Shown: piece by piece, positions 12,414 to 20,316 of the stretch | How positions within the stretch are numbered: position 1 is the stretch's first letter | Layout of the letters: the number at the start of each line of letters is the position of its first letter | DNA from: a phage | Strand: one strand, 5' to 3' | Length of the DNA stretch: 39,017 bases | Sequence record: PZ168289.1 | Notes under the pieces: generated by a model | What the model was told of the DNA's origin: nothing | The model's database searches: none | What the model saw: the letters and a program-made list of their open reading frames with translations, nothing else | Program-made: the position numbers and the translations under genes

Positions 12414-15095
12414 TTAAGCGAATGCAAAGTCTGAAGACAAGATGTCTTCGATATTCAGTTTACCTTTCTTCGGAAGCTCAGGCAACTTATCGCGCTGGCT
12501 CTCATGAAGCTGGTATTCAAACTGCTCGTAGAAGTCCAGCAGCACATCGTTGTCTCGGTAGGTCTCGACCATCGTCTCACGGACACCACGGAACAGATAC
12601 TCAGCGTCAGCCGGGATGGTCCCGAAGCTATCGTGAATCACTGCGAATGACATCACGCCATACTTGCGGTGAGTGTGGACTACAGTCTTGCGTAGGTGGC
12701 TACCATCTTGTGAGTGGACGAAGTTCGGGCTAATTCCTGACTCCTGCTTGTGCTTATCCAGCTCCTTCTTCGTGCCTTTGTTGACGGTAGGCTGAAGGTT
12801 GAATGACCCTAAGAACATCAGGTTCAGACGAGTTGTATCCTTCTTGCGGTATTCCTGCCATACCGGGAACCCATCAGGTGTGACCCAGTGTACCGGAAGA
12901 CAAGGCTTCAGGATTTCTCCAGTCTTCTTGTCCTTCACCTCAGCAGCCAGCAGCTTGGCAGCACCTTGAAGCCACTTCATCGCGTCAACCGCAGCAACTA
13001 CTGTCACACTCACAGCTTCCCAAATCATCTTAGCCATGAAGCGAGACGCTTGGCTTGGTTCAGTGAACATAGCGCCAGACCCTGAGTCAATCGCTGGCAT
13101 CACGATGTCCTCGTATACTTGGTCTGCGAAGCCGTACTCTTTCGACCCGTAGGCCAGAGTCATGACCGAACGCTTAGTGACCTTGCGTGACATACCGTAG
13201 GTCAGCCACTGACGGGCCAGCTCTCGTGTCCCCAGCTTGAGACGCTCGGTAATCTCACCAGTTTTCTTGTCCTCGTGAGTTGCCATCTCGTTGTCCGTAC
13301 CGTTAACCAGCAGGACTTTGAGTTCCTCCTCAATGCGGTCAGACACAATGCGATAGATGTCTTGGACCTTACCGGATGGCGTTAGGTTTACTGCATGCCC
13401 ACCGATGTGGTCACGAAGCATCGCGCTGAAGTGCTGAATCCCAGAGCAGGACCCATCGAAAGCTATCGGCAGCGAGCAGGAGTAAGACAAACCGTGGTGC
13501 ATTACGCCAGCATACTCGAAGCAGAACGCTAGGAAGCAGAACGGAGAGTCTAACTTACCCCACCACTCAATGCTGTCCATCGGTGCTTTAGCGGTAGCCA
13601 TGATGTTGTCGTGGTTATCTTCCACCCACTTGATGCGCTCCTCGAAGGTTACTTTATCAATACCCGCACAGTTTGCACCGTGGACCTTCAGCCATTTGAA
13701 ACCATCAGCACCAATAGGCTTACCGACTGCCAGAGTCAGCAGACCCTTTTGCATGTCGTTACCCTGAGGGTTGAACATCGGCACAGCGTAGACGCGACCG
13801 CGCCAGTCCATGTTGTACGGAAACCAGATGGCCTTGAACTGAGAGAACTTGTTCGCTTGGTTAACGATAAAGCTCAGTGACAATCTACGTGACTGCCGGG
13901 CCTTCTCTCGGCGGTAGATACCAGCAGCAGCCTTCTTCCATGCCTTGAGTTCCTCCTCGGTCTCACCCGCATAGTCCTCAGGCTTCAGTGGCTCCATCTG
14001 AGGGATGTCATCAATAGGTGTGTTGTTCAACTTCTCGACCATGTTCACCACGTCCAGCACCTTCTTGTTCACTTTCCAAGGTGTGTTCTGAATGATGTTC
14101 ACAGCGTCGTAGACTTCAGGCATGTATACGTCTTCATAACGTGCCACCGCTGACTTAGACCCTAAGCGAATCAGGGGCAGCGGTCTGCGACCTTTGGCCC
14201 AGTACCCACCGCCTACGACACCAGTCCACGGCTTAGGTGGAACGACGCAAGGCTGGTAGACTGGAGCGATACCCGCAAGGCTGAATCCTCGTTGTGCCAT
14301 CTTCTTGACCCAGAAGTCTGACAGGTGGACCATCTCTACGTCAGCCGCTGCATTGCCAGCACCGTACCGCTTAAGCTCGACCAGTTGTGTTGACTGGATG
14401 ACAATCTCAAGCATCTTGATGCCAACGTGGACAGCCTCTGTAGGACTCCAAGTCCCCCACGCATCTTCCAGTTGGCCTTGCTCCAGCATGGATGCCTCGA
14501 CCGCTTGCATGTAGGCTTTCTTGTAGGACGCCCCGGCCCGCTTATTCAGGTTATCAGCTATCGCCTTCTTGAAGTGCTCTTTCTCCTTGTCACGGATGCG
14601 ACCGAAGCGGATTTCGTCCTCAAGTGTGCGACCTATCGCGGAGGCCATCGGTGTAATCGGTATCCCTTCAGGCTTGACCAGCTTGGAGAGTATGACCTTC
14701 AGTATGATGACCGCAGCAGACTCGCAAGAGATACGCAGAGAGCGGTCCTTGACGGCCTTCTCTTCAGTGCTCAACATGGTGAACGCTACGCTAGGACGAG
14801 AGGTTGACAGCTTCCCGTCTGGGCCTCCATGCCACTCCTTGATGGCTTGCGCAATCTTAGGGACCAGAGTCTGCATCAAAGGCTTGGCTACCTGATTGTC
14901 TGCGAGTTCTCCGCGCTCAGTCTGGCGCTCAAGGTTCTTGATGAAACGTCGCTCGCCTTCAGTGTATGCCTCGTGCTCAAGCTGAAGCTGCTTGACTGCA
15001 AGGTCCTGCCCGTAGTGGTCAGCCAGCAGGTTAAACGGCTCAATGGCGTTTGACACATCAGAGAAGTCGTGTTTTTCAATAGAGATGACGCTCAT
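12414..15095 (-). CDS. single-subunit DNA-directed RNA polymerase (T7 gp1-like)
   Basis: Collinear with T7 RNAP (HDFSD, PFN.LADHYG, motifs around DGSCSGIQHFSA and HDSFGT, C-terminal FAFA); start set to ATG 15095 (MSVISIEKHDF) with AAGGA RBS; track start 15146 is GTG. Confidence 0.97.
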   Translation of the reverse strand: MSVISIEKHDFSDVSNAIEPFNLLADHYGQDLAVKQLQLEHEAYTEGERRFIKNLERQTERGELADNQVAKPLMQTLVPKIAQAIKEWHGGPDGKLSTSRPSVAFTMLSTEEKAVKDRSLRISCESAAVIILKVILSKLVKPEGIPITPMASAIGRTLEDEIRFGRIRDKEKEHFKKAIADNLNKRAGASYKKAYMQAVEASMLEQGQLEDAWGTWSPTEAVHVGIKMLEIVIQSTQLVELKRYGAGNAAADVEMVHLSDFWVKKMAQRGFSLAGIAPVYQPCVVPPKPWTGVVGGGYWAKGRRPLPLIRLGSKSAVARYEDVYMPEVYDAVNIIQNTPWKVNKKVLDVVNMVEKLNNTPIDDIPQMEPLKPEDYAGETEEELKAWKKAAAGIYRREKARQSRRLSLSFIVNQANKFSQFKAIWFPYNMDWRGRVYAVPMFNPQGNDMQKGLLTLAVGKPIGADGFKWLKVHGANCAGIDKVTFEERIKWVEDNHDNIMATAKAPMDSIEWWGKLDSPFCFLAFCFEYAGVMHHGLSYSCSLPIAFDGSCSGIQHFSAMLRDHIGGHAVNLTPSGKVQDIYRIVSDRIEEELKVLLVNGTDNEMATHEDKKTGEITERLKLGTRELARQWLTYGMSRKVTKRSVMTLAYGSKEYGFADQVYEDIVMPAIDSGSGAMFTEPSQASRFMAKMIWEAVSVTVVAAVDAMKWLQGAAKLLAAEVKDKKTGEILKPCLPVHWVTPDGFPVWQEYRKKDTTRLNLMFLGSFNLQPTVNKGTKKELDKHKQESGISPNFVHSQDGSHLRKTVVHTHRKYGVMSFAVIHDSFGTIPADAEYLFRGVRETMVETYRDNDVLLDFYEQFEYQLHESQRDKLPELPKKGKLNIEDILSSDFAFA

Positions 15096-15163
15096 ACTTA
15101 AAGTCCTTGTTATTAGTCTTTCACTTAAGTCTCTTTGGTCTTTCACTTGGAGTCTTAGACCTT

Positions 15164-15186
15164 GAGTCCTATAGTGATAGTTAAGT
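15164..15186 (-). promoter_or_regulatory. phage RNAP promoter directly upstream of the RNAP gene
   Basis: CCTATAGTGATAGTTAAG at 15168-15185, about 70 nt upstream of RNAP ATG 15095. Confidence 0.65.
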
Positions 15187-15191
15187 CATAA

Positions 15192-15452
15192 TTACTTGCA
15201 TATCAGAGGGTTAGCGTGAAGATGACTGAAGTCACCGTGAGTCGTGTGCTTGATGGTTGACCGTTGGTCTATCGCCTTCCAGCCTGAGACCAGAAGTTTA
15301 CCATCGTCGGTGATTGGTCGTCCACCATACGCCAGACACATCAGCTCGGACTTATGGCCCTCGGCCCGGAGTCTTGCTTGCAGAACCCGGTCTCGCTCCT
15401 GCTGTTGACGTGCGGTGTGACTTGATGGTTTGTGTGTGTATACGGTTTTCAT
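15192..15452 (-). CDS. hypothetical early protein
   Basis: 86-aa ORF directly upstream of RNAP; start overlaps the stop of the preceding ORF. Confidence 0.5.
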   Translation of the reverse strand: MKTVYTHKPSSHTARQQQERDRVLQARLRAEGHKSELMCLAYGGRPITDDGKLLVSGWKAIDQRSTIKHTTHGDFSHLHANPLICK

Positions 15453-15649
15453 TACAGTTTGCTCCCAAGAGTTGCTATATCCCAGACGTTCGCTAAATTG
15501 CGCATGAATCGTCCGTTAGGTTGACGTACAGTCCAGCGGCCCAGACGTACATAGTTGAATTTGTAGACTTTACATGCCTTGTTGATGTCTCTCACCAGCA
15601 CGTAGGCGATAAGTCCATAGCCATAGGCTATCAATAGTGCAAGACTCAT
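15452..15649 (-). CDS. hypothetical early protein with hydrophobic N-terminal segment
   Basis: 65-aa ORF; N-terminal stretch LALLIAYGYGLIAYVLV looks like a transmembrane helix; ATGA overlap with upstream micro-ORF. Confidence 0.5.
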   Translation of the reverse strand: MSLALLIAYGYGLIAYVLVRDINKACKVYKFNYVRLGRWTVRQPNGRFMRNLANVWDIATLGSKL

Positions 15650-15735
15650 AGTGATTTCCGTTTAATACAGTCGTATAACCCATAGCCTATCATCCAGATA
15701 ACTGGCGCTAGGCAGACCCAATATCCCACACTCAT
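15646..15735 (-). CDS. putative 29-aa hydrophobic micro-protein
   Basis: Hand-translated MSVGYWVCLAPVIWMIGYGLYDCIKRKSL; AGGAG 7 nt upstream; stop overlaps next start (ATGA). Confidence 0.3.
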   Translation of the reverse strand: MSVGYWVCLAPVIWMIGYGLYDCIKRKSL

Positions 15736-15805
15736 AGTTAACTCCTATTAATGCAAGTGGTAATCTTTGAGGCCACCTATCAGTCGATGACCTCTCGTCT
15801 ATCAC

Positions 15806-15931
15806 TCAGTACCCGCCTGTCAGTGTTATGGTTAGGCTATGGTGATTAGCCACGTAGCAAGCCCCGCGCTTCATCATCTCGTAGCACCCATCGTAGAACG
15901 CCTGTTCACTGCTATAAGTTATCTGGTACAT
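15806..15931 (-). CDS. hypothetical early micro-protein (track ORF 15806..15994 shortened)
   Basis: Track start 15994 is GTG; internal ATG at 15931 follows a GGGAG motif and sits just after the stop of the upstream 49-aa ORF. Confidence 0.35.
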   Translation of the reverse strand: MYQITYSSEQAFYDGCYEMMKRGACYVANHHSLTITLTGGY

Positions 15932-15932
15932 G

Positions 15933-16082
15933 TTAGTCAATCTCCCAGATAGCCGTACCATTTGGTAGACGTTTACCAAACCCCTGCTGGTCACGGAAGC
16001 GTGCCCTTGCGTCTCTCTCGTTGTATCCGTAGCAAGTCATTGTGTAACACCATCCCGGAATGTGTATAGCGTATCGTTTCAT
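15933..16082 (-). CDS. hypothetical early micro-protein (49 aa)
   Basis: Hand-translated MKRYAIHIPGWCYTMTCYGYNERDARARFRDQQ...; GAGGA 9 nt upstream; ATGA overlap with upstream ORF. Confidence 0.4.
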   Translation of the reverse strand: MKRYAIHIPGWCYTMTCYGYNERDARARFRDQQGFGKRLPNGTAIWEID

Positions 16083-16240
16083 TGTGGTTTATCCTCAGCG
16101 TGTAGACTATCGTGAATACGTTTGCGGCCCTCATAGACCGCTTTCAGGTGACGCATGGTCGCATCGTGGTTTAACTGCCCGGTCTTGACCATAATCCGGG
16201 CGTTGGTGACGTGGTGCTGGCAGAGACCATAAGTTACCAT
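16079..16240 (-). CDS. hypothetical early micro-protein (53 aa)
   Basis: Hand-translated MVTYGLCQHHVTNARIMVKTGQLNHDATMRHLKAVYEGRKRIHDSLHAEDKPQ; ATG overlaps Ocr stop (TGATG); GAGGA upstream. Confidence 0.4.
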   Translation of the reverse strand: MVTYGLCQHHVTNARIMVKTGQLNHDATMRHLKAVYEGRKRIHDSLHAEDKPQ

Positions 16241-16767
16241 CAATCGCAATCCTCAGCAGCCGCAGGGTCGAACACTACGTTATCGTTGATGTCTTCGACC
16301 TGCATGTGAAAACCTTCCTCATAGAGTTCTTTTGCACATGCAGTAGCCTCGTAAAGTGATACAGCTCCCTCAATTATCTCGCCTGTTCTAGTGTCAACTA
16401 CCCAATATTCAGCCTTTTCGTCTTCCTCTTCAGCCTTTTCGTCTGCCTCTTCATCCTCAAACCAGACCACATCCGAGCTATTAGACACGTCGTTATAAAG
16501 CGCCTCATAGATGCGAGCTTGCAGTATACGCGTTACATCCTTGGTATCAGGCATCAGCCCAGAATCTTCGAACTCGTGGTCTATACCATCAGCAGCCATT
16601 ACCGTGAAAATCTCGTGGTAATAGTGCGGAACATTACCGTCTACGACCTCATGCAGCGCATCGCTGTAGTCGTCTCCTTCAGCTATTTCGTCGTACTGAA
16701 TACGCTCGTTAAATGCCTTAACGGTTGCAGCCAGCAGGTCATAGTATGCGTTAGCGTTACGTTCCAT
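16240..16767 (-). CDS. Ocr-like DNA-mimic anti-restriction protein (T7 gp0.3 homolog) with C-terminal extension
   Basis: Residues ~24-95 align with T7 Ocr (YD.I...DD..DA.H...D..VPHYY..IF.VMA..GID.EFEDSGLMPDTKDV.RILQARIYE); very acidic; 175 aa vs 117 in T7. Confidence 0.85.
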   Translation of the reverse strand: MERNANAYYDLLAATVKAFNERIQYDEIAEGDDYSDALHEVVDGNVPHYYHEIFTVMAADGIDHEFEDSGLMPDTKDVTRILQARIYEALYNDVSNSSDVVWFEDEEADEKAEEEDEKAEYWVVDTRTGEIIEGAVSLYEATACAKELYEEGFHMQVEDINDNVVFDPAAAEDCD

Positions 16768-16799
16768 AGTTATATCCTCTCAAAGTTAATTGTGTGTAT

Positions 16800-16850
16800 G
16801 TTAGTGACTATCAATCAGGCCGCTATGAGTCTAACGACCTGTAGTTAATC
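16800..16850 (-). other. early-region hairpin element A (putative RNase III site upstream of ocr)
   Basis: Minus RNA AGGUCG-UUAGACUCAUAG-CGGCCU (plus 16817-16840); related to element B. Confidence 0.35.
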
Positions 16851-17025
16851 ACTGGCAATTGAACGCATGGTCCAAGCACTTATTGAACGCGTCCTGCGCT
16901 TGCTCACGGCTATCCCACTCAGTCTTAGACAATCCGTAGATTATCACATGCTTAGTGCGATACTTATAGTCGTTAGCCGTATACCAGATTACGCCCAGTT
17001 CTTCGTTCATCGCTATGATTTTCAT
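16849..17025 (-). CDS. putative first early ORF (58 aa)
   Basis: Hand-translated MKIIAMNEELGVIWYTANDYKYRTKHVIIYGLSKTEWDSREQAQDAFNKCLDHAFNCQ; weak RBS; flanked by two related hairpin elements. Confidence 0.3.
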   Translation of the reverse strand: MKIIAMNEELGVIWYTANDYKYRTKHVIIYGLSKTEWDSREQAQDAFNKCLDHAFNCQ

Positions 17026-17039
17026 AATGTTACCCTATT

Positions 17040-17100
17040 TAAGTTAGTGACTATCAGTCAAGGCCTTCAGATGTAGACTCAAAGACCCTGTAGTTAGTCG
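17040..17100 (-). other. early-region hairpin element B (in leader of first early ORF)
   Basis: Minus RNA CAGGGUCUU-(14 nt loop)-AAGGCCUUG (plus 17059-17090); ~55 bp related to element A, including an internal direct repeat. Confidence 0.35.
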
Positions 17101-17205
17101 CTATCGGCGCACATTAAGAGTTTATCCAGATTGTTAAAGAGCATTCGCGTTGGCTGTCGTCGCCGTGCTATCCCGTTTCAGTGTTGGGACTCACTAATCT
17201 TGCTT

Positions 17206-17242
17206 GCCGTATAAGTTACTACAGTCAAACCAGCTTGTCAAT
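17206..17242 (-). promoter_or_regulatory. candidate host sigma70 early promoter 3
   Basis: Minus-strand TTGACA (plus 17236-17241), 17-nt spacer, TAACTT (plus 17213-17218); layout resembles T7 A2/A3. Confidence 0.35.
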
Positions 17243-17274
17243 CACTTTCTTAACTCGCTTGCTGTCCTGCTTGG

Positions 17275-17311
17275 TGAATCATACTACTTTAAGTCGGTAC
17301 ATCTTGTCAAC
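17275..17311 (-). promoter_or_regulatory. candidate host sigma70 early promoter 2
   Basis: Minus-strand TTGACA (plus 17305-17310), 18-nt spacer, TAGTAT (plus 17281-17286). Confidence 0.4.
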
Positions 17312-17414
17312 TACTTTCTGTCATCTGCCTGTTGTTCGTATGACTTATCAGGCTGTCTACTTAACCGGGATGACCCGGCGTCTTCACTATCGGTTGTTGC
17401 CGTGTCGTGTTGAC

Positions 17415-17451
17415 GGAATCTATTAAGCCATAGTCTGGACCTGTAGTCAAT
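17415..17451 (-). promoter_or_regulatory. candidate host sigma70 early promoter 1
   Basis: Minus-strand TTGACT (plus 17445-17450) with weak -10 candidates 17-18 nt downstream; weakest of the three. Confidence 0.25.
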
Positions 17452-17459
17452 AGGTAATC

Positions 17460-18093
17460 TTAAATAATATTGATTGAGCTATCGTCGGCCCCATAGTGTA
17501 AGAGGATATAGTCTTTGACTAACATGTCTTTGACCTTAAGTCTATAGCTGTGTGTCGATTAACTGTAGGCCTTTGACTGTAGGCGTTGGTGTCTTATGGT
17601 TGTGACTTATGGTTGTGACTTATGGTTGTGACTTATGGTTGTGACTTATGGTTGTGACTTATGGTTATACAGATAGAGACTCAGAGGCAGACCAATAGTC
17701 CCTACCTATCGTCTCCACCACCACCGATAGTCATGACCTATCGTTGACTTGAGGTATTTACAGCCGGTCCAACCTTATGATAGACTGGGGTAGGGCCTTT
17801 GGTCTGGACTTAAAGAGGGCCTATGGGGAGACTTGAGGTTCTTGAACTGTGAGATGTGGTCTCAAACTTTTGGTCCAAAACTCATCGTCCCTACTGTAGG
17901 ACACAGCCACTGTAGGTCAAGGACCGTAGGTCAGGCGACACTAGGATAGACCAATAAGTAGGATGACCCTAAGTGAGCTTCTATTAAGGTGTTACCTAAA
18001 GTCCTTGACTACAGTAGCTAAGGTCAGTAGAGTGAGTCTTTATCCACGTACTGACCTTAGGTCTTCCGCTCATGAATCGTTACCATGATTGCG
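17460..18093. repeat. ORF-free genome-terminus region with dispersed short repeats (likely holds the collapsed terminal repeat / concatemer junction)
   Basis: No ORF of any size with an RBS; recurrent short motifs (TAGGTCA/TGACCTA variants, TGTAGG); lies between the last late gene and the early promoters, where the T7 ends and terminal repeat map. Confidence 0.5.
17593..17670. repeat. tandem array of a 13-bp unit CTTATGGTTGTGA (5 perfect copies plus degenerate flanking copies)
   Basis: Perfect copies at 17593-17605, 17606-17618, 17619-17631, 17632-17644, 17645-17657; partial copy 17658-17670; in the ORF-free genome-end region. Confidence 0.9.
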
Positions 18094-18252
18094 TTAATTA
18101 CACTGAGACACCAGAGAACATACGAGAGTCTCGACCCACCCGACCCACTGACTTCCAGCAGTAACGCCAGCAGCAAGTAGAACAGCAGCAAGAAACCTGT
18201 ATGTAGCTCGATTGGTCGCCAGAGCTTTAAGTACAGCTTTGGTCTTTGCCAT
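18094..18252 (-). CDS. gp19.5-like small membrane protein
   Basis: 52-aa ORF hand-translated (MAKTKAVLKALATNRATYRFLAAVLLAAGVTAGSQWVGWVETLVCSLVSQCN); AGGAGG 10 nt upstream; last gene after terminase, downstream of promoter 18433-18455. Confidence 0.5.
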   Translation of the reverse strand: MAKTKAVLKALATNRATYRFLAAVLLAAGVTAGSQWVGWVETLVCSLVSQCN

Positions 18253-18432
18253 ATGCTACATACCTCCTGTATCTATGGTCGGTGACTATCTGTATTGGAG
18301 GGATTATGATTAATATCACCCTCCTTCCATCGGTGCAAGCCTTAGGTAAGAACTCGGAGTCTGCCTCCTAAGGTCTTGCATAAAGTCTGCATATGTATAT
18401 TCACTACAGTAATACTATAAGTAACCGGGGGT

Positions 18433-18455
18433 CTTCCCTATAGTGATAGTTAAGT
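18433..18455 (-). promoter_or_regulatory. phage RNAP promoter (phi-OR-like, after terminase, before gp19.5)
   Basis: CCTATAGTGATAGTTAAG at 18437-18454. Confidence 0.7.
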
Positions 18456-18549
18456 CCAAACTCCTTGTAAAACAGTAGGTTAGACTGGTAGTAACTATAG
18501 GTTACTAACCGCGTATTCATGCAGCTTTCACCCATAGTTATTCATTCAG

Positions 18550-20316
18550 CTAGTGGAACGTAACGTATGACCCTAGTCCTAGCTCGTCGTCCGTATCGTG
18601 AGTTACCCTGACCCCATTGTCCCAGAACTCGGTGTGGATGGACTCGAAGCCTTTCCGTGGGTTCTCCATCTGTTCCTCCAGCCACTCCTCAGTGACTTCG
18701 CGTTCGCCTTTGTTGGCATCCTTAGCCATAGACTCAACGAAGAACTGTACACCGATAGCCAGAGCATCAAGTCGGTCATCGTGTGCCAAGGCTCCACGCT
18801 CACGAGAGATACGGGTCATCTGGTAGAAGAGAGAGTAGATAGGGTTACGAACGCCATCCTTATCAGAGGCTGTCTGGTAGTCTTGGACGATAGCAGCAGC
18901 GTTAACGATAAGTCGGTGAGACCCCATGATAGGCTCCAGAACGTCACAGATGCGGAGTTCTTTCTGACCCTTACTCTTCACTTCAGTTACAGCCGCAGGA
19001 TGGATACGGGCCGCTACAGGCTTGAATAGCTCAAGGTACATACCATCACCGAAGTTACCCTCAATGACGTATTCGTTGACCTTCCACTTACGACCAATCT
19101 TAGCCAAGGCTTCCAACGTAGAGTCTTCATAACCGCCACGCATACCACCCACTTCCATAGCGAAGATGTAGCCGTTGAGCTGATACAGTACCGCATAACC
19201 AGTTTCATCCTTACCACGACCACTAGGGTCAATGACCAGAATCTTCTGGGTGTACGAACTGAAGGCAGAACCTACAGTCTGATACGTGTGGTACGAGTCA
19301 CCCATGAGTCCAACGTTAGGAACGTCCTCACGCTTGTTCTGAGGGTTCGGCAACCATTGGTAGACCATTGGACTGGACGCTGGGTCCAAGTCGGCTACGA
19401 TAAGGTCACGGAGCTTCAGAGGGTACTTCTCTGCATCACTCAGGTTAGGGTTAAGCATGAACTGTAGCGCGAAGCCAGCTTTACCGTAAGATAGCTCACG
19501 TTCCTTAAGGTCAGTATCATCGAAGCGTACTTCATCAGTCGGACGCCAGTAGAAGGACTCAGGGTCCTCTTCCAGCTCTGCCTGAAGCATAGGAGCCAGA
19601 CGGTCGCCGTAAGACTGCCAGTCCTTCCTGTCGCGTGGATACCGAGCTGGCCAGATAGTAGTGGTATACCCACGACCTTCCAACTCACGATACAGGGTCA
19701 TCTCGTTCTGAGGAGTGCCCAGATAGATGATTGCACCTCCCGGCTTCAGGATAGCGTCGAACTCTTTCACAAGCTCTGACAGTCGGTCTCGCGCAGCCTG
19801 AGTCGCAGAGTTGTTAGGAACCTCCACGTCATCGGCAATCAGGATGTCAGCACGACTACCAGTCAACTGACCAGTGATGCCAACGGACTTAACCGAAGGT
19901 GAGTGGTCTGGCTTGGCTGGCCCAACGTCGAAGCTGATAACTGCATCTCGCTGTCCCTGCTTAGGTTTGAGTTCCTGAAGCTGAGGCATGAGGTCGATGA
20001 TTCGCTTGATGAATATGGAGTTAGCATCGGCTCGTTCCTTTGAGGCCGACACAATCATGAACTTCAAGTCTGGGTTGTTCCATAGTTTCCAGACCACGAA
20101 ACCACAGGTCAGAAACGACTTGCCAATACCACGGAACGCCTGAAGGATGAAGCGGCGATTATCCCCAGCAGCAAGCTTCTTACACATATCTATCTGGCAG
20201 CGGGTTGGAACCGGAAGGCTAAGAGCTTTCCAGAGAACGAAGATGAAGAACACGAAGTCGTCCCTCATCCTTTGGGTCATTTCTGCCTGTCTTTCCACAG
20301 GTGTTTTCTTAGACAT
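18550..20316 (-). CDS. terminase large subunit (T7 gp19-like)
   Basis: Collinear with T7 gp19 ([81 protein letters not shown]); GGAGGG RBS. Confidence 0.97.

What the first reader, a model, noticed from the sequence alone, without database searches (positions are those of the whole stretch)
16240..16767. Ocr-like DNA mimic with an extra ~60-aa C-terminal domain
The N-terminal ~110 aa align well with T7 Ocr (gp0.3), the DNA mimic that blocks type I restriction and BREX. The ORF then continues for ~60 more residues (…EYWVVDTRTGEIIEGAVSLYEATACAKELYEEGFHMQVEDINDNVVFDP…) that T7 Ocr lacks and that look like a folded module rather than an acidic tail. This could be a second anti-defence function fused to Ocr.
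Basis: partly seen in the sequence, partly recalled or inferred. Interest (0 to 1): 0.65.

Follow-up and report, generated by a model that had tools for sequence, protein, structure and literature searches.

The report
K1F-type Ocr with extra C-terminal domain
This is the K1F-type version of the phage anti-restriction DNA mimic Ocr, with a small, confidently folded domain of unknown function on a flexible acidic tether; the architecture is real and common in K1F-like phages, so it is an experimental lead rather than a new discovery.

Summary
Window 16240-16767 (minus strand) is an intact 175-aa gene. Residues 1-103 are a clear Ocr domain (Pfam PF08684 E=1.5e-31; 64% identity to T7 Ocr). An acidic linker (104-120) follows, then a 48-residue module (121-168) that AlphaFold2 predicts confidently (pLDDT 91.6) as beta-beta-alpha-beta-beta.

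It is not a false fusion. The best 120 database homologs are all 162-179 aa, and 71 phage genomes, including K1F (2005), encode the module inside gp0.3. A divergent version occurs in Ebrios, Aeromonas and Stenotrophomonas phages. The module is under purifying selection (dN/dS 0.34, against 0.19 for the Ocr core).

It is often lost or broken in viable phages, through a precise in-frame deletion, frameshifts and deletion chimeras. It was never found outside an Ocr gene, on plasmids or in E. coli genomes.

Best reading: a bona fide Ocr with a tethered, conditionally useful accessory binding module. A second anti-defence function is plausible but unsupported. The window's gene is one more member of this deposited but uncharacterised Ocr variant. 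Interest is moderate.

The parts
16240..16767 (-). Complete gp0.3 / long-form Ocr gene (175 aa plus TGA stop)
   Evidence: ORF listing; PHROG 2568 'ocr-like anti-restriction' E=3.4e-56 over residues 1-154
16775..16779 (-). Shine-Dalgarno GAGGA, 7 nt upstream of the ATG
   Evidence: Read directly from the sequence: minus strand GAGGATATAACTATG
16459..16767 (-). Ocr DNA-mimic core, residues 1-103, including the dimer-interface residue F54
   Evidence: Pfam PF08684 E=1.5e-31; PDB 1s7z E=3.8e-27; 64% identity to T7 Ocr; F54 invariant in 49 homologs; net charge -16; dN/dS 0.19
16408..16458 (-). Poly-acidic flexible linker, residues 104-120 (EDEEADEKAEEEDEKAE). It contains a 21-bp tandem duplication that makes it 7 aa longer than in K1F.
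   Evidence: AF2 pLDDT below 50 at 108-117; TRF repeat at 16408-16457, period 21, 2.4 copies; DNA alignment with K1F; linker length ranges from 2 aa (CLB_P1) to about 30 aa (P0062) in homologs
16264..16407 (-). C-terminal accessory module, residues 121-168: beta1 YWVVD, beta2 EIIEGA, helix SLYEATACAKELYEE, and the beta3-turn-beta4 hairpin HMQVEDINDNVVFDP
   Evidence: AF2 module-only model pLDDT 91.6, pTM 0.76; W122, A141, G152, H154, V157, V164, V165 and P168 invariant, and the VEDINDNVVFDP hairpin nearly invariant; dN/dS 0.34; 71 phage records
16243..16263 (-). Short acidic C-terminal tail AAAEDCD, usually ..EEDCE in homologs
   Evidence: Alignments. The tail is retained in the module-less variants SEA1f and PRF-SP7.
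16079..16240 (-). Downstream gp0.4-like gene (MVTYGLCQHH...). Its ATG overlaps the Ocr stop (TGATG), which suggests translational coupling. It is a separate gene, not the source of the extension.
   Evidence: ORF listing; resemblance to T7 gp0.4 and the K1F downstream ORF seen by eye in the translations, no alignment run; PHROG 5058 E=1.2e-28; the ortholog in L004 carries precomputed Pfam PF26807 Phage_T7_GP04; hhalign of module against this protein E=0.31

Best explanation
The gene is the K1F-type (Kayfunavirus) gp0.3. Shown here: the N-terminal 103 residues are a genuine Ocr domain, and the C-terminal 48 residues are an independently folded, acidic alpha/beta mini-domain joined by a disordered poly-acidic tether. 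From established knowledge of T7 Ocr: the core should dimerise through the conserved F54 interface into a negatively charged rod. That rod plugs the DNA-binding grooves of type I R-M enzymes and BREX PglX. Inferred: the module acts as a tethered second 'head' at each distal tip of the Ocr dimer and binds a host protein through its invariant beta3-beta4 hairpin (VEDINDNVVFDP). The partner could be a second site on an Ocr-targeted defence complex, which would add avidity or range. It could instead be a component of a system that senses Ocr (PARIS-, EcoR22I- or Ronin-type), or an unrelated defence effector. The module would then be a conditionally beneficial accessory to the core anti-restriction function. 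That fits its conservation under purifying selection alongside its repeated loss in phages propagated on permissive hosts.
For: Ocr identity; F54 is invariant. Independent fold: pLDDT 91.6 when modelled alone, linker pLDDT below 50 and pTM only 0.44 for the full length. Linker length varies from 2 to about 30 aa, including a 21-bp duplication in this window, so rigid geometry relative to the core is not required; this favours a tethered binding head over a rigid extension of the mimic surface. Purifying selection: dN/dS 0.34 against 0.19 for the core. Polar, probably exposed hairpin residues (E158, D159, N161, D162, D167) are nearly invariant, while the helix and beta2 positions vary. The architecture is old and spans genera: a divergent co-linear version occurs in Teseptimavirus-like Ebrios, Aeromonas and Stenotrophomonas phages. 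The module is always inside an Ocr gene and never elsewhere. Natural losses in viable phages show dispensability typical of anti-defence accessories. Literature shows several bacterial systems that sense Ocr, giving a selective rationale (PMC9122126; bioRxiv 10.1101/2023.04.06.535777).
Confidence: 0.4

Rival explanations
1. Passive role. The module and linker extend the negative charge or length of the DNA mimic, or act as a solubility/stability 'bristle' or protease shield for Ocr, with no partner of their own.
For: The module and linker are strongly acidic (linker 71% D/E; module net -9). Acidity is kept in the divergent clade (sequences). There is no recognisable binding or catalytic family. 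Frequent loss has no obvious penalty.
Against: A passive acidic extension does not need a precisely conserved fold with invariant W, G, H and P and an invariant hairpin. T7, K1-5 and Klebsiella-phage Ocr proteins manage with a short unstructured acidic tail. The variable linker length argues against a geometrically defined extension of the mimic.
Confidence: 0.25
2. Fusion passenger. The module is a formerly independent small early host-takeover protein, of the kind that litters T7-like early regions. It became fused to Ocr by deletion and keeps an unrelated function that has nothing to do with Ocr or defence.
For: Deletion chimeras between adjacent early genes do arise in this region: P0113 is the module N-half fused to the gp0.4-like C-half, and IMEP24 is the module N-half fused to the C-terminus of an SH3-gp4-like gene. 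BFVD structural neighbours are mostly 45-90-aa uncharacterised phage proteins (TM 0.6-0.79).
Against: No standalone copy was found. The only 'standalone' ORFs are frameshift products. The exhaustive phmmer search found no free homolog. The fused architecture is conserved across two divergent clades, which suggests selection for linkage.
Confidence: 0.2
3. Decaying remnant. The module is a domain with little or no present function that is being lost from the lineage.
For: There are many independent losses and disruptions: SEA1f, PRF-SP7, IMEP24, P0113, L003-5 and L027. Only 71 of 573 Ocr-bearing phage records have it.
Against: dN/dS of 0.34 with dS of 0.45 shows sustained purifying selection. 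All 120 best homologs are intact. The predicted fold is highly confident.
Confidence: 0.1
4. Artefact. A sequencing or assembly error fused Ocr to a downstream ORF.
For: Rare related contigs do carry frameshifts at or inside the module.
Against: The continuous reading frame is found in 71 phage genomes and in more than 100 database proteins. Where both matches were listed, the N-domain and module coordinates are in frame in 8 of 8 records. T7 gp0.4's ortholog is a separate downstream gene.
Confidence: 0.01

Closest known systems
Escherichia phage K1F gp0.3 (YP_338090, 169 aa) and other Kayfunavirus 'ocr-like anti-restriction' proteins (PHROG 2568)
   Same: Same two-domain architecture. The module is 93% identical. 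The gene has the same position, and the gp0.4-like gene directly downstream overlaps its stop.
   Different: The window's protein is 6 aa longer overall. A 21-bp tandem duplication adds 7 aa to the linker, and the C-terminal tail is one residue shorter. There are also a few substitutions. None of these proteins has been functionally characterised in the literature searched.
T7 Ocr (gp0.3; PDB 1S7Z; Pfam PF08684)
   Same: Homologous core: 64% identity over residues 19-94. F54, the PHYY motif and the EFEDSGLMPDTKDV loop are conserved, pI is about 4, and both are early genes upstream of the RNA polymerase gene.
   Different: T7 Ocr is 117 aa, with a longer last helix and a short unstructured acidic tail. 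It lacks the 48-aa folded module.
Salmonella phage SP6 Gp5 (Ocr homolog shown to inhibit Salmonella BREX; PMC11341690)
   Same: An Ocr-family protein from another Autographiviridae lineage, showing that Ocr homologs keep anti-BREX activity. SP6 matches the window's N-domain at 52% identity.
   Different: No module match was reported for SP6. SP6 gp5 itself was not read here. The K1-5 protein, from the same subfamily (Molineuxvirinae), is short.
T4 Dmd antitoxin (PDB 5HY3_B) and anti-CRISPR AcrIF9
   Different: Sequence identity is 8-17% and Foldseek E-values are 0.9-4. This is resemblance of a generic small fold, not evidence of homology or shared target.
ClpS / ribosomal bL12 C-terminal domain fold
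   Different: Only about half of ClpS is covered. The module has one main helix plus a short C-terminal one, where ClpS is recalled to have three. Foldseek does not recover ClpS at all, and no sequence signal exists.

Membership tests
Ocr DNA mimic (Pfam PF08684, T7 gp0.3) | Significant sequence match to the family model and to the solved T7 Ocr | tested here: met
   109.3 bits against a cutoff of 25; 1s7z E=3.8e-27; 64% identity
Ocr DNA mimic (Pfam PF08684, T7 gp0.3) | All-helical core | tested here: met
   AF2 helices at 7-26, 35-59 and 75-96. Confidence is only moderate (pLDDT 50-83), as expected for a monomer model of an obligate dimer.
Ocr DNA mimic (Pfam PF08684, T7 gp0.3) | Dimer-interface residue F54. 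F54A abolishes dimerisation and F54V escapes PARIS (PMC9122126). | tested here: met
   F54 is invariant in 49 homologs and aligned to T7 F54. Dimerisation itself was not tested.
Ocr DNA mimic (Pfam PF08684, T7 gp0.3) | Extreme negative charge mimicking the DNA backbone | tested here: met
   Core net -16; whole protein net -38, calculated pI 4.05
Ocr DNA mimic (Pfam PF08684, T7 gp0.3) | Early-region gene upstream of the phage RNA polymerase | tested here: met
   Ocr is at 16240-16767 and the RNAP gene at 12414-15146, on the same strand. The synteny matches T7 and K1F.
Ocr DNA mimic (Pfam PF08684, T7 gp0.3) | Inhibition of type I R-M / BREX | not testable with these tools
   Requires EOP or transformation assays
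Ocr DNA mimic (Pfam PF08684, T7 gp0.3) | Single-domain protein of about 117 aa | tested here: not met
   175 aa with an additional folded module. It is therefore an architectural variant of the family, not the canonical form.
T7 gp0.4 (FtsZ inhibitor; Pfam PF26807), tested as the possible source of the extension | Sequence or profile similarity of the module to gp0.4 | tested here: not met
   hhalign E=0.31, matching only the 4-residue RHLK. A separate gp0.4-like gene lies downstream.
ClpS / bL12-CTD fold | Strong, full-domain structural superposition | tested here: inconclusive
T4 Dmd-type antitoxin | Structural homology to Dmd and binding of an RnlA/LsoA toxin | tested here: inconclusive
Cadherin-type DxNDN Ca2+-binding motif | Conserved DxNDN in a Ca2+-binding context | tested here: not met
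   The only exhaustive-search hits are cadherins matching VEDINDNVVF. The NDN is replaced by SSE in the Ebrios clade, and the fold is unrelated.

The most novel reading that the evidence does not exclude
The C-terminal module is a self-contained anti-defence effector. For example, it could inhibit or shield against a system that senses Ocr (PARIS AriA/AriB, type III EcoR22I, Ronin), or act as a Dmd-like direct toxin inhibitor. K1F-type Ocr would then be a bifunctional 'restriction inhibitor plus anti-sensor', and T7's textbook Ocr a secondarily shortened form.
Probability: 0.2. Interest if true: 0.7.

Novelty: new variant of a known kind. Interest (0 to 1): 0.4.

Why it matters
Ocr is the model DNA mimic. 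It sits at the centre of current work on type I R-M, BREX, host RNA polymerase inhibition and 'anti-anti-restriction' sensors (PARIS, EcoR22I, Ronin). All of that work uses the 117-aa T7 protein. A widespread natural two-domain form exists in therapeutic-candidate K1F-like coliphages. Its extra domain is conserved, confidently folded and unassigned. That makes a cheap, well-defined experiment possible: full-length versus module-deleted versus module alone. The result could reveal how phages tune or protect a DNA mimic in the arms race. If the module proves passive, the result is still useful for annotation, because the long form should not be read as a second function by default.

Tried and rejected
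1. Extension as a fused T7 gp0.4. Rejected: gp0.4 has its own ortholog directly downstream in the window and in K1F, and hhalign gives E=0.31.
2. Sequencing or false-fusion artefact. Rejected.
3. A 'standalone' 59-aa module gene (P0001). It is a +1 frameshift product, caused by an extra G in a GGG run, in three assemblies from consecutively numbered sequencing runs. P0002 and the split gene in L027 also look like fragment or frameshift products.
4. Cadherin-like Ca2+ site. This is motif-level similarity only and is not conserved across clades.
5. Pfam, PHROG, PADLOC and PDB-sequence profile searches of the module gave nothing consistent. A single member hit PepSY at E=0.0018 through the 'VDAKTG' motif.
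6. The word-indexed protein search with the short module query or its profile returned only 2 fragments and missed the long Ocr proteins. This is a tool limitation, not a biological result.
7. The exhaustive representative search also missed the long-Ocr cluster. A likely reason is that its 50% cluster representative lacks an intact module. 'No homolog elsewhere' is therefore a soft negative.
8. The afdb50 fold library was unavailable.
9. The K1F genome paper (PMC1317022) is not held.
10. Plasmid and E. coli genome searches for the module gave no match.
11. Link between the module and absence of the gp0.7 kinase. Rejected: Ebrios and IME15 have both, while no kinase gene is annotated in the roughly 700 bp shown downstream of SEA1f's short Ocr.

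Full report
OBSERVATION. The window is a K1F-like (Kayfunavirus) T7-family genome. It is about 93% identical over about 85% of 25 kb to K1F-like coliphages, and its genes lie on the minus strand. The T7-type RNA polymerase gene is at 12414-15146. The reported ORF is exactly 16240-16767 on the minus strand: ATG start, 175 aa, TGA stop. A GAGGA ribosome-binding site lies 7 nt upstream.

Residues 7-96 match Pfam 'ocr' PF08684 at 109 bits against a cutoff of 25. The protein matches solved T7 Ocr (1s7z) at E=3.8e-27 and is 64% identical to it over residues 19-94. T7 Ocr is 117 aa, so about 58 residues are additional.

ANATOMY. AlphaFold2 on a 49-sequence alignment gives three long helices and one short one (7-26, 35-59, 62-65, 75-96) for the core. 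It gives a disordered stretch at 108-117 (pLDDT below 50) and a compact unit at 121-168 with pLDDT 82-86. Modelled alone with 23 diverse sequences, that unit reaches pLDDT 91.6 and pTM 0.76, with topology beta-beta-alpha-beta-beta plus a short terminal helix.
- The core (1-103) has net charge -16.
- The linker (104-120, EDEEADEKAEEEDEKAE) is 71% acidic.
- The module (121-168) has net charge -9.

In the window the linker carries a 21-bp tandem duplication (16408-16457). That makes it 7 aa longer than K1F's.

NOT AN ARTEFACT, AND NOT RARE. A search of 5.8 billion proteins gave 512 homologs. The best 120 are all 162-179 aa with the module intact. tblastn of the module finds it in 71 phage genome records. 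These include K1F (93% identity), Citrobacter SH3, Hafnia yong1, Providencia EPr2 and Salmonella KE14/18. Where the record is annotated, the match usually lies under a gene called gp0.3/Ocr. Wherever both matches were listed, the N-domain and the module are contiguous and in frame, in 8 of 8 records.

The PHROG 'ocr-like anti-restriction' profile is 161 positions long and aligns to residues 1-154, so the extension is built into that family model. By contrast, 573 phage records carry an Ocr N-domain, so most Ocr genes lack the module. Examples of short forms are T7, K1-5 (110 aa), Klebsiella TVB03 (113 aa) and SEA1f (111 aa).

The module was not found on plasmids or in 5,426 complete E. coli genomes. 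A degenerate-pattern scan of 241 million metagenome records for its invariant hairpin gave two contigs, both inside Ocr genes. IMG/VR gave three loci, all T7-like contigs.

A SECOND, DIVERGENT CLADE. Ebrios (Teseptimavirus, 174 aa) and eight further Aeromonas and Stenotrophomonas phage records encode an Ocr with a different-looking C-terminal part. It aligns co-linearly with the module at 30% identity, hhalign E=8e-4. Shared positions are W, D, G, the SL-EA helix start, Y, G, 'VED' and V-[VL]-[FY]-x-P. The Ocr-plus-module architecture is therefore old and spans genera. Salmonella PRF-SP7 has a T7-like core that ends with only the module's last strand and tail (SVVFDHAAAEDCE). This suggests that short forms can derive from long ones. 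Whether T7's own Ocr is such a derivative is speculation.

SELECTION AND LOSS. Across 11 distinct genes, Nei-Gojobori dN/dS is 0.19 for the core and 0.34 for the module (dS 0.45). The module is constrained but evolves faster.
- Variation sits in beta2 and in the helix residues that do not follow the i+3/i+4 spacing of the conserved, presumably buried, ones (inferred, no coordinates). There are two sub-types. The window and K1F have ...SLYEATACAKELYEEGFHMQ, and most others have ...SLEVATACAKDHYAIGRHLK.
- beta1 (YWVVD) and the hairpin VEDINDNVVFDP are almost invariant.
- Linker length ranges from 2 residues (CLB_P1) to about 30 (P0062).

The module is also repeatedly destroyed in otherwise viable phages:
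- SEA1f has a clean in-frame deletion between GGTTCGA microhomologies (VVWFE...VVFD).
- L003-L005 carry a +1 frameshift, an extra G, that truncates Ocr at 117 aa.
- L027 is frameshifted inside the module.
- P0113 fuses the module's N-half to the C-half of the gp0.4-like gene at a shared RHLK.
- IMEP24 fuses the module's N-half to the C-terminus of a downstream SH3-gp4-like gene.

In-frame survivors keep the ...EDCE tail. The simplest explanation is that the Ocr stop overlaps the start of the next gene (TGATG), so keeping the frame preserves translational coupling. This is inference.

WHAT THE MODULE IS NOT. It is not a fused gp0.4. T7 gp0.4 has a separate look-alike immediately downstream in K1F and in the window (16079-16240), and profile comparison is negative. 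It matches no Pfam, PHROG or PADLOC family and no PDB sequence.

An exhaustive phmmer search of 1.84 billion cluster representatives returned only two cadherins, which hit the VEDINDNVVF stretch through their DxNDN repeats. That motif is not conserved in the Ebrios clade.

Structure searches are weak.
- Foldseek against PDB has no hit better than E 0.89.
- Foldseek against BFVD lists many 45-90-aa uncharacterised phage proteins at TM 0.6-0.79, but with E of 0.038 or worse.

I treat these as resemblance to a generic small alpha/beta fold, not as membership of any family.

LITERATURE. Five full-text searches and nine papers read turned up nothing on the long form's extra domain. Genome papers simply call the gene Ocr or antirestriction. 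Functional work uses T7 Ocr, or SP6 Gp5 for BREX (PMC11341690). The context that matters is that several bacterial systems sense Ocr itself. These are PARIS, which the F54V mutant escapes (PMC9122126), and the type III EcoR22I and the decoy Ronin (bioRxiv 10.1101/2023.04.06.535777). Selection on Ocr therefore goes beyond simple restriction blocking.

MECHANISM. Shown: an Ocr core with a conserved dimer-interface residue and DNA-like charge; a flexible acidic tether; and an independently folding, selectively maintained, dispensable acidic mini-domain that is only ever found attached to Ocr. [quoted passage not shown] From my recollection of 1S7Z, each C-terminus emerges at a distal tip of the dimer.

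Inferred, at about 0.4 confidence: the module is a tethered secondary binding head that uses its invariant hairpin to contact a host protein. It would either reinforce or broaden inhibition of Ocr targets, or counter a system that senses Ocr. The tolerance to linker length argues against a rigid extension of the mimic surface.

Rivals:
- a passive electrostatic or stability appendage (0.25);
- a passenger from an ancient gene fusion with an unrelated host-takeover role (0.2);
- a decaying remnant (0.1);
- an artefact (about 0.01).

NOVELTY AND VERDICT. The gene in this window is one more member of the K1F gp0.3 group; a 99% identical protein is already in databases (P0003). The class it belongs to is an architectural variant of Ocr that has sat in GenBank since 2005. 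As far as I could find, its extra domain has never been described, named or tested. I rate it 'new variant of a known kind', with interest 0.4. It is a solid, cheap experimental lead in an active field, but not a surprise to anyone who has aligned Ocr homologs, and it has no positive evidence yet for a second function.

Noticed in passing
window 16408-16457: A 21-bp tandem duplication (2.4 copies, 93% match) lies inside the acidic linker of Ocr. It adds 7 aa relative to K1F. Linker length is highly plastic among homologs, from 2 to about 30 aa.
   Followed up: yes
window 16079-16240 (-): A small gene resembling T7 gp0.4 by eye (PHROG 5058). Its ATG overlaps the Ocr stop codon (TGATG), which suggests translational coupling. 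The ortholog in L004 carries precomputed Pfam PF26807 (Phage_T7_GP04), but the local Pfam copy gave no hit for the window's version.
   Followed up: partly
window 15147-16078 and 16768-17100 (-): No gp0.7 kinase gene lies between Ocr and the RNA polymerase gene, as in K1F. There are only small ORFs of unknown function (PHROGs 13225, 33188, 2385, 7066). A conserved 58-aa ORF (PHROG 20418) precedes Ocr at 16849-17025, so Ocr is not the first early gene.
   Followed up: partly
L006 (IMEP24), P0113, L007 (SEA1f), L011 (PRF-SP7), L003-L005, L027: The early region downstream of Ocr is a hotspot of deletions and frameshifts that create chimeric ORFs. Examples are the module N-half fused to the gp0.4-like C-half (P0113) and the module N-half fused to an SH3-gp4-like C-terminus (IMEP24), plus a clean in-frame module deletion at a 7-bp microhomology (SEA1f).
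   Followed up: yes
GenBank records listed (e.g. LT594300, OM355495, MZ398247, OR594182, PV611674): The long-form Ocr gene is mis-annotated in several deposited genomes as 'protein kinase', 'Phage protein kinase', 'similar to N4-like RNA polymerase' or 'NinH protein'.
   Followed up: no
window 16264-16300 (residues 157-168): The invariant hairpin VEDINDNVVFDP resembles the cadherin inter-domain DxNDNxPxF Ca2+-binding motif closely enough to pull out two cadherins as the only hits in a 1.84-billion-protein search. It is probably convergent, and the NDN is not kept in the Ebrios clade.
   Followed up: yes
window 17026-18550: This stretch of about 1.5 kb has no ORF of 100 aa or more. It contains sigma-70-like promoter matches on the minus strand (e.g. 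TTGACA-18-TAGTAT at 17310-17281). It probably holds the early promoter region and genome ends of a permuted assembly.
   Followed up: no
L010 (Ebrios), L023, L024, L025: A divergent clade of the module (about 30% identity) occurs in Teseptimavirus-like phages of E. coli C, Aeromonas and Stenotrophomonas. At least two of these (Ebrios, IME15) also encode the gp0.7 kinase, so module presence is not a substitute for the kinase.
   Followed up: partly
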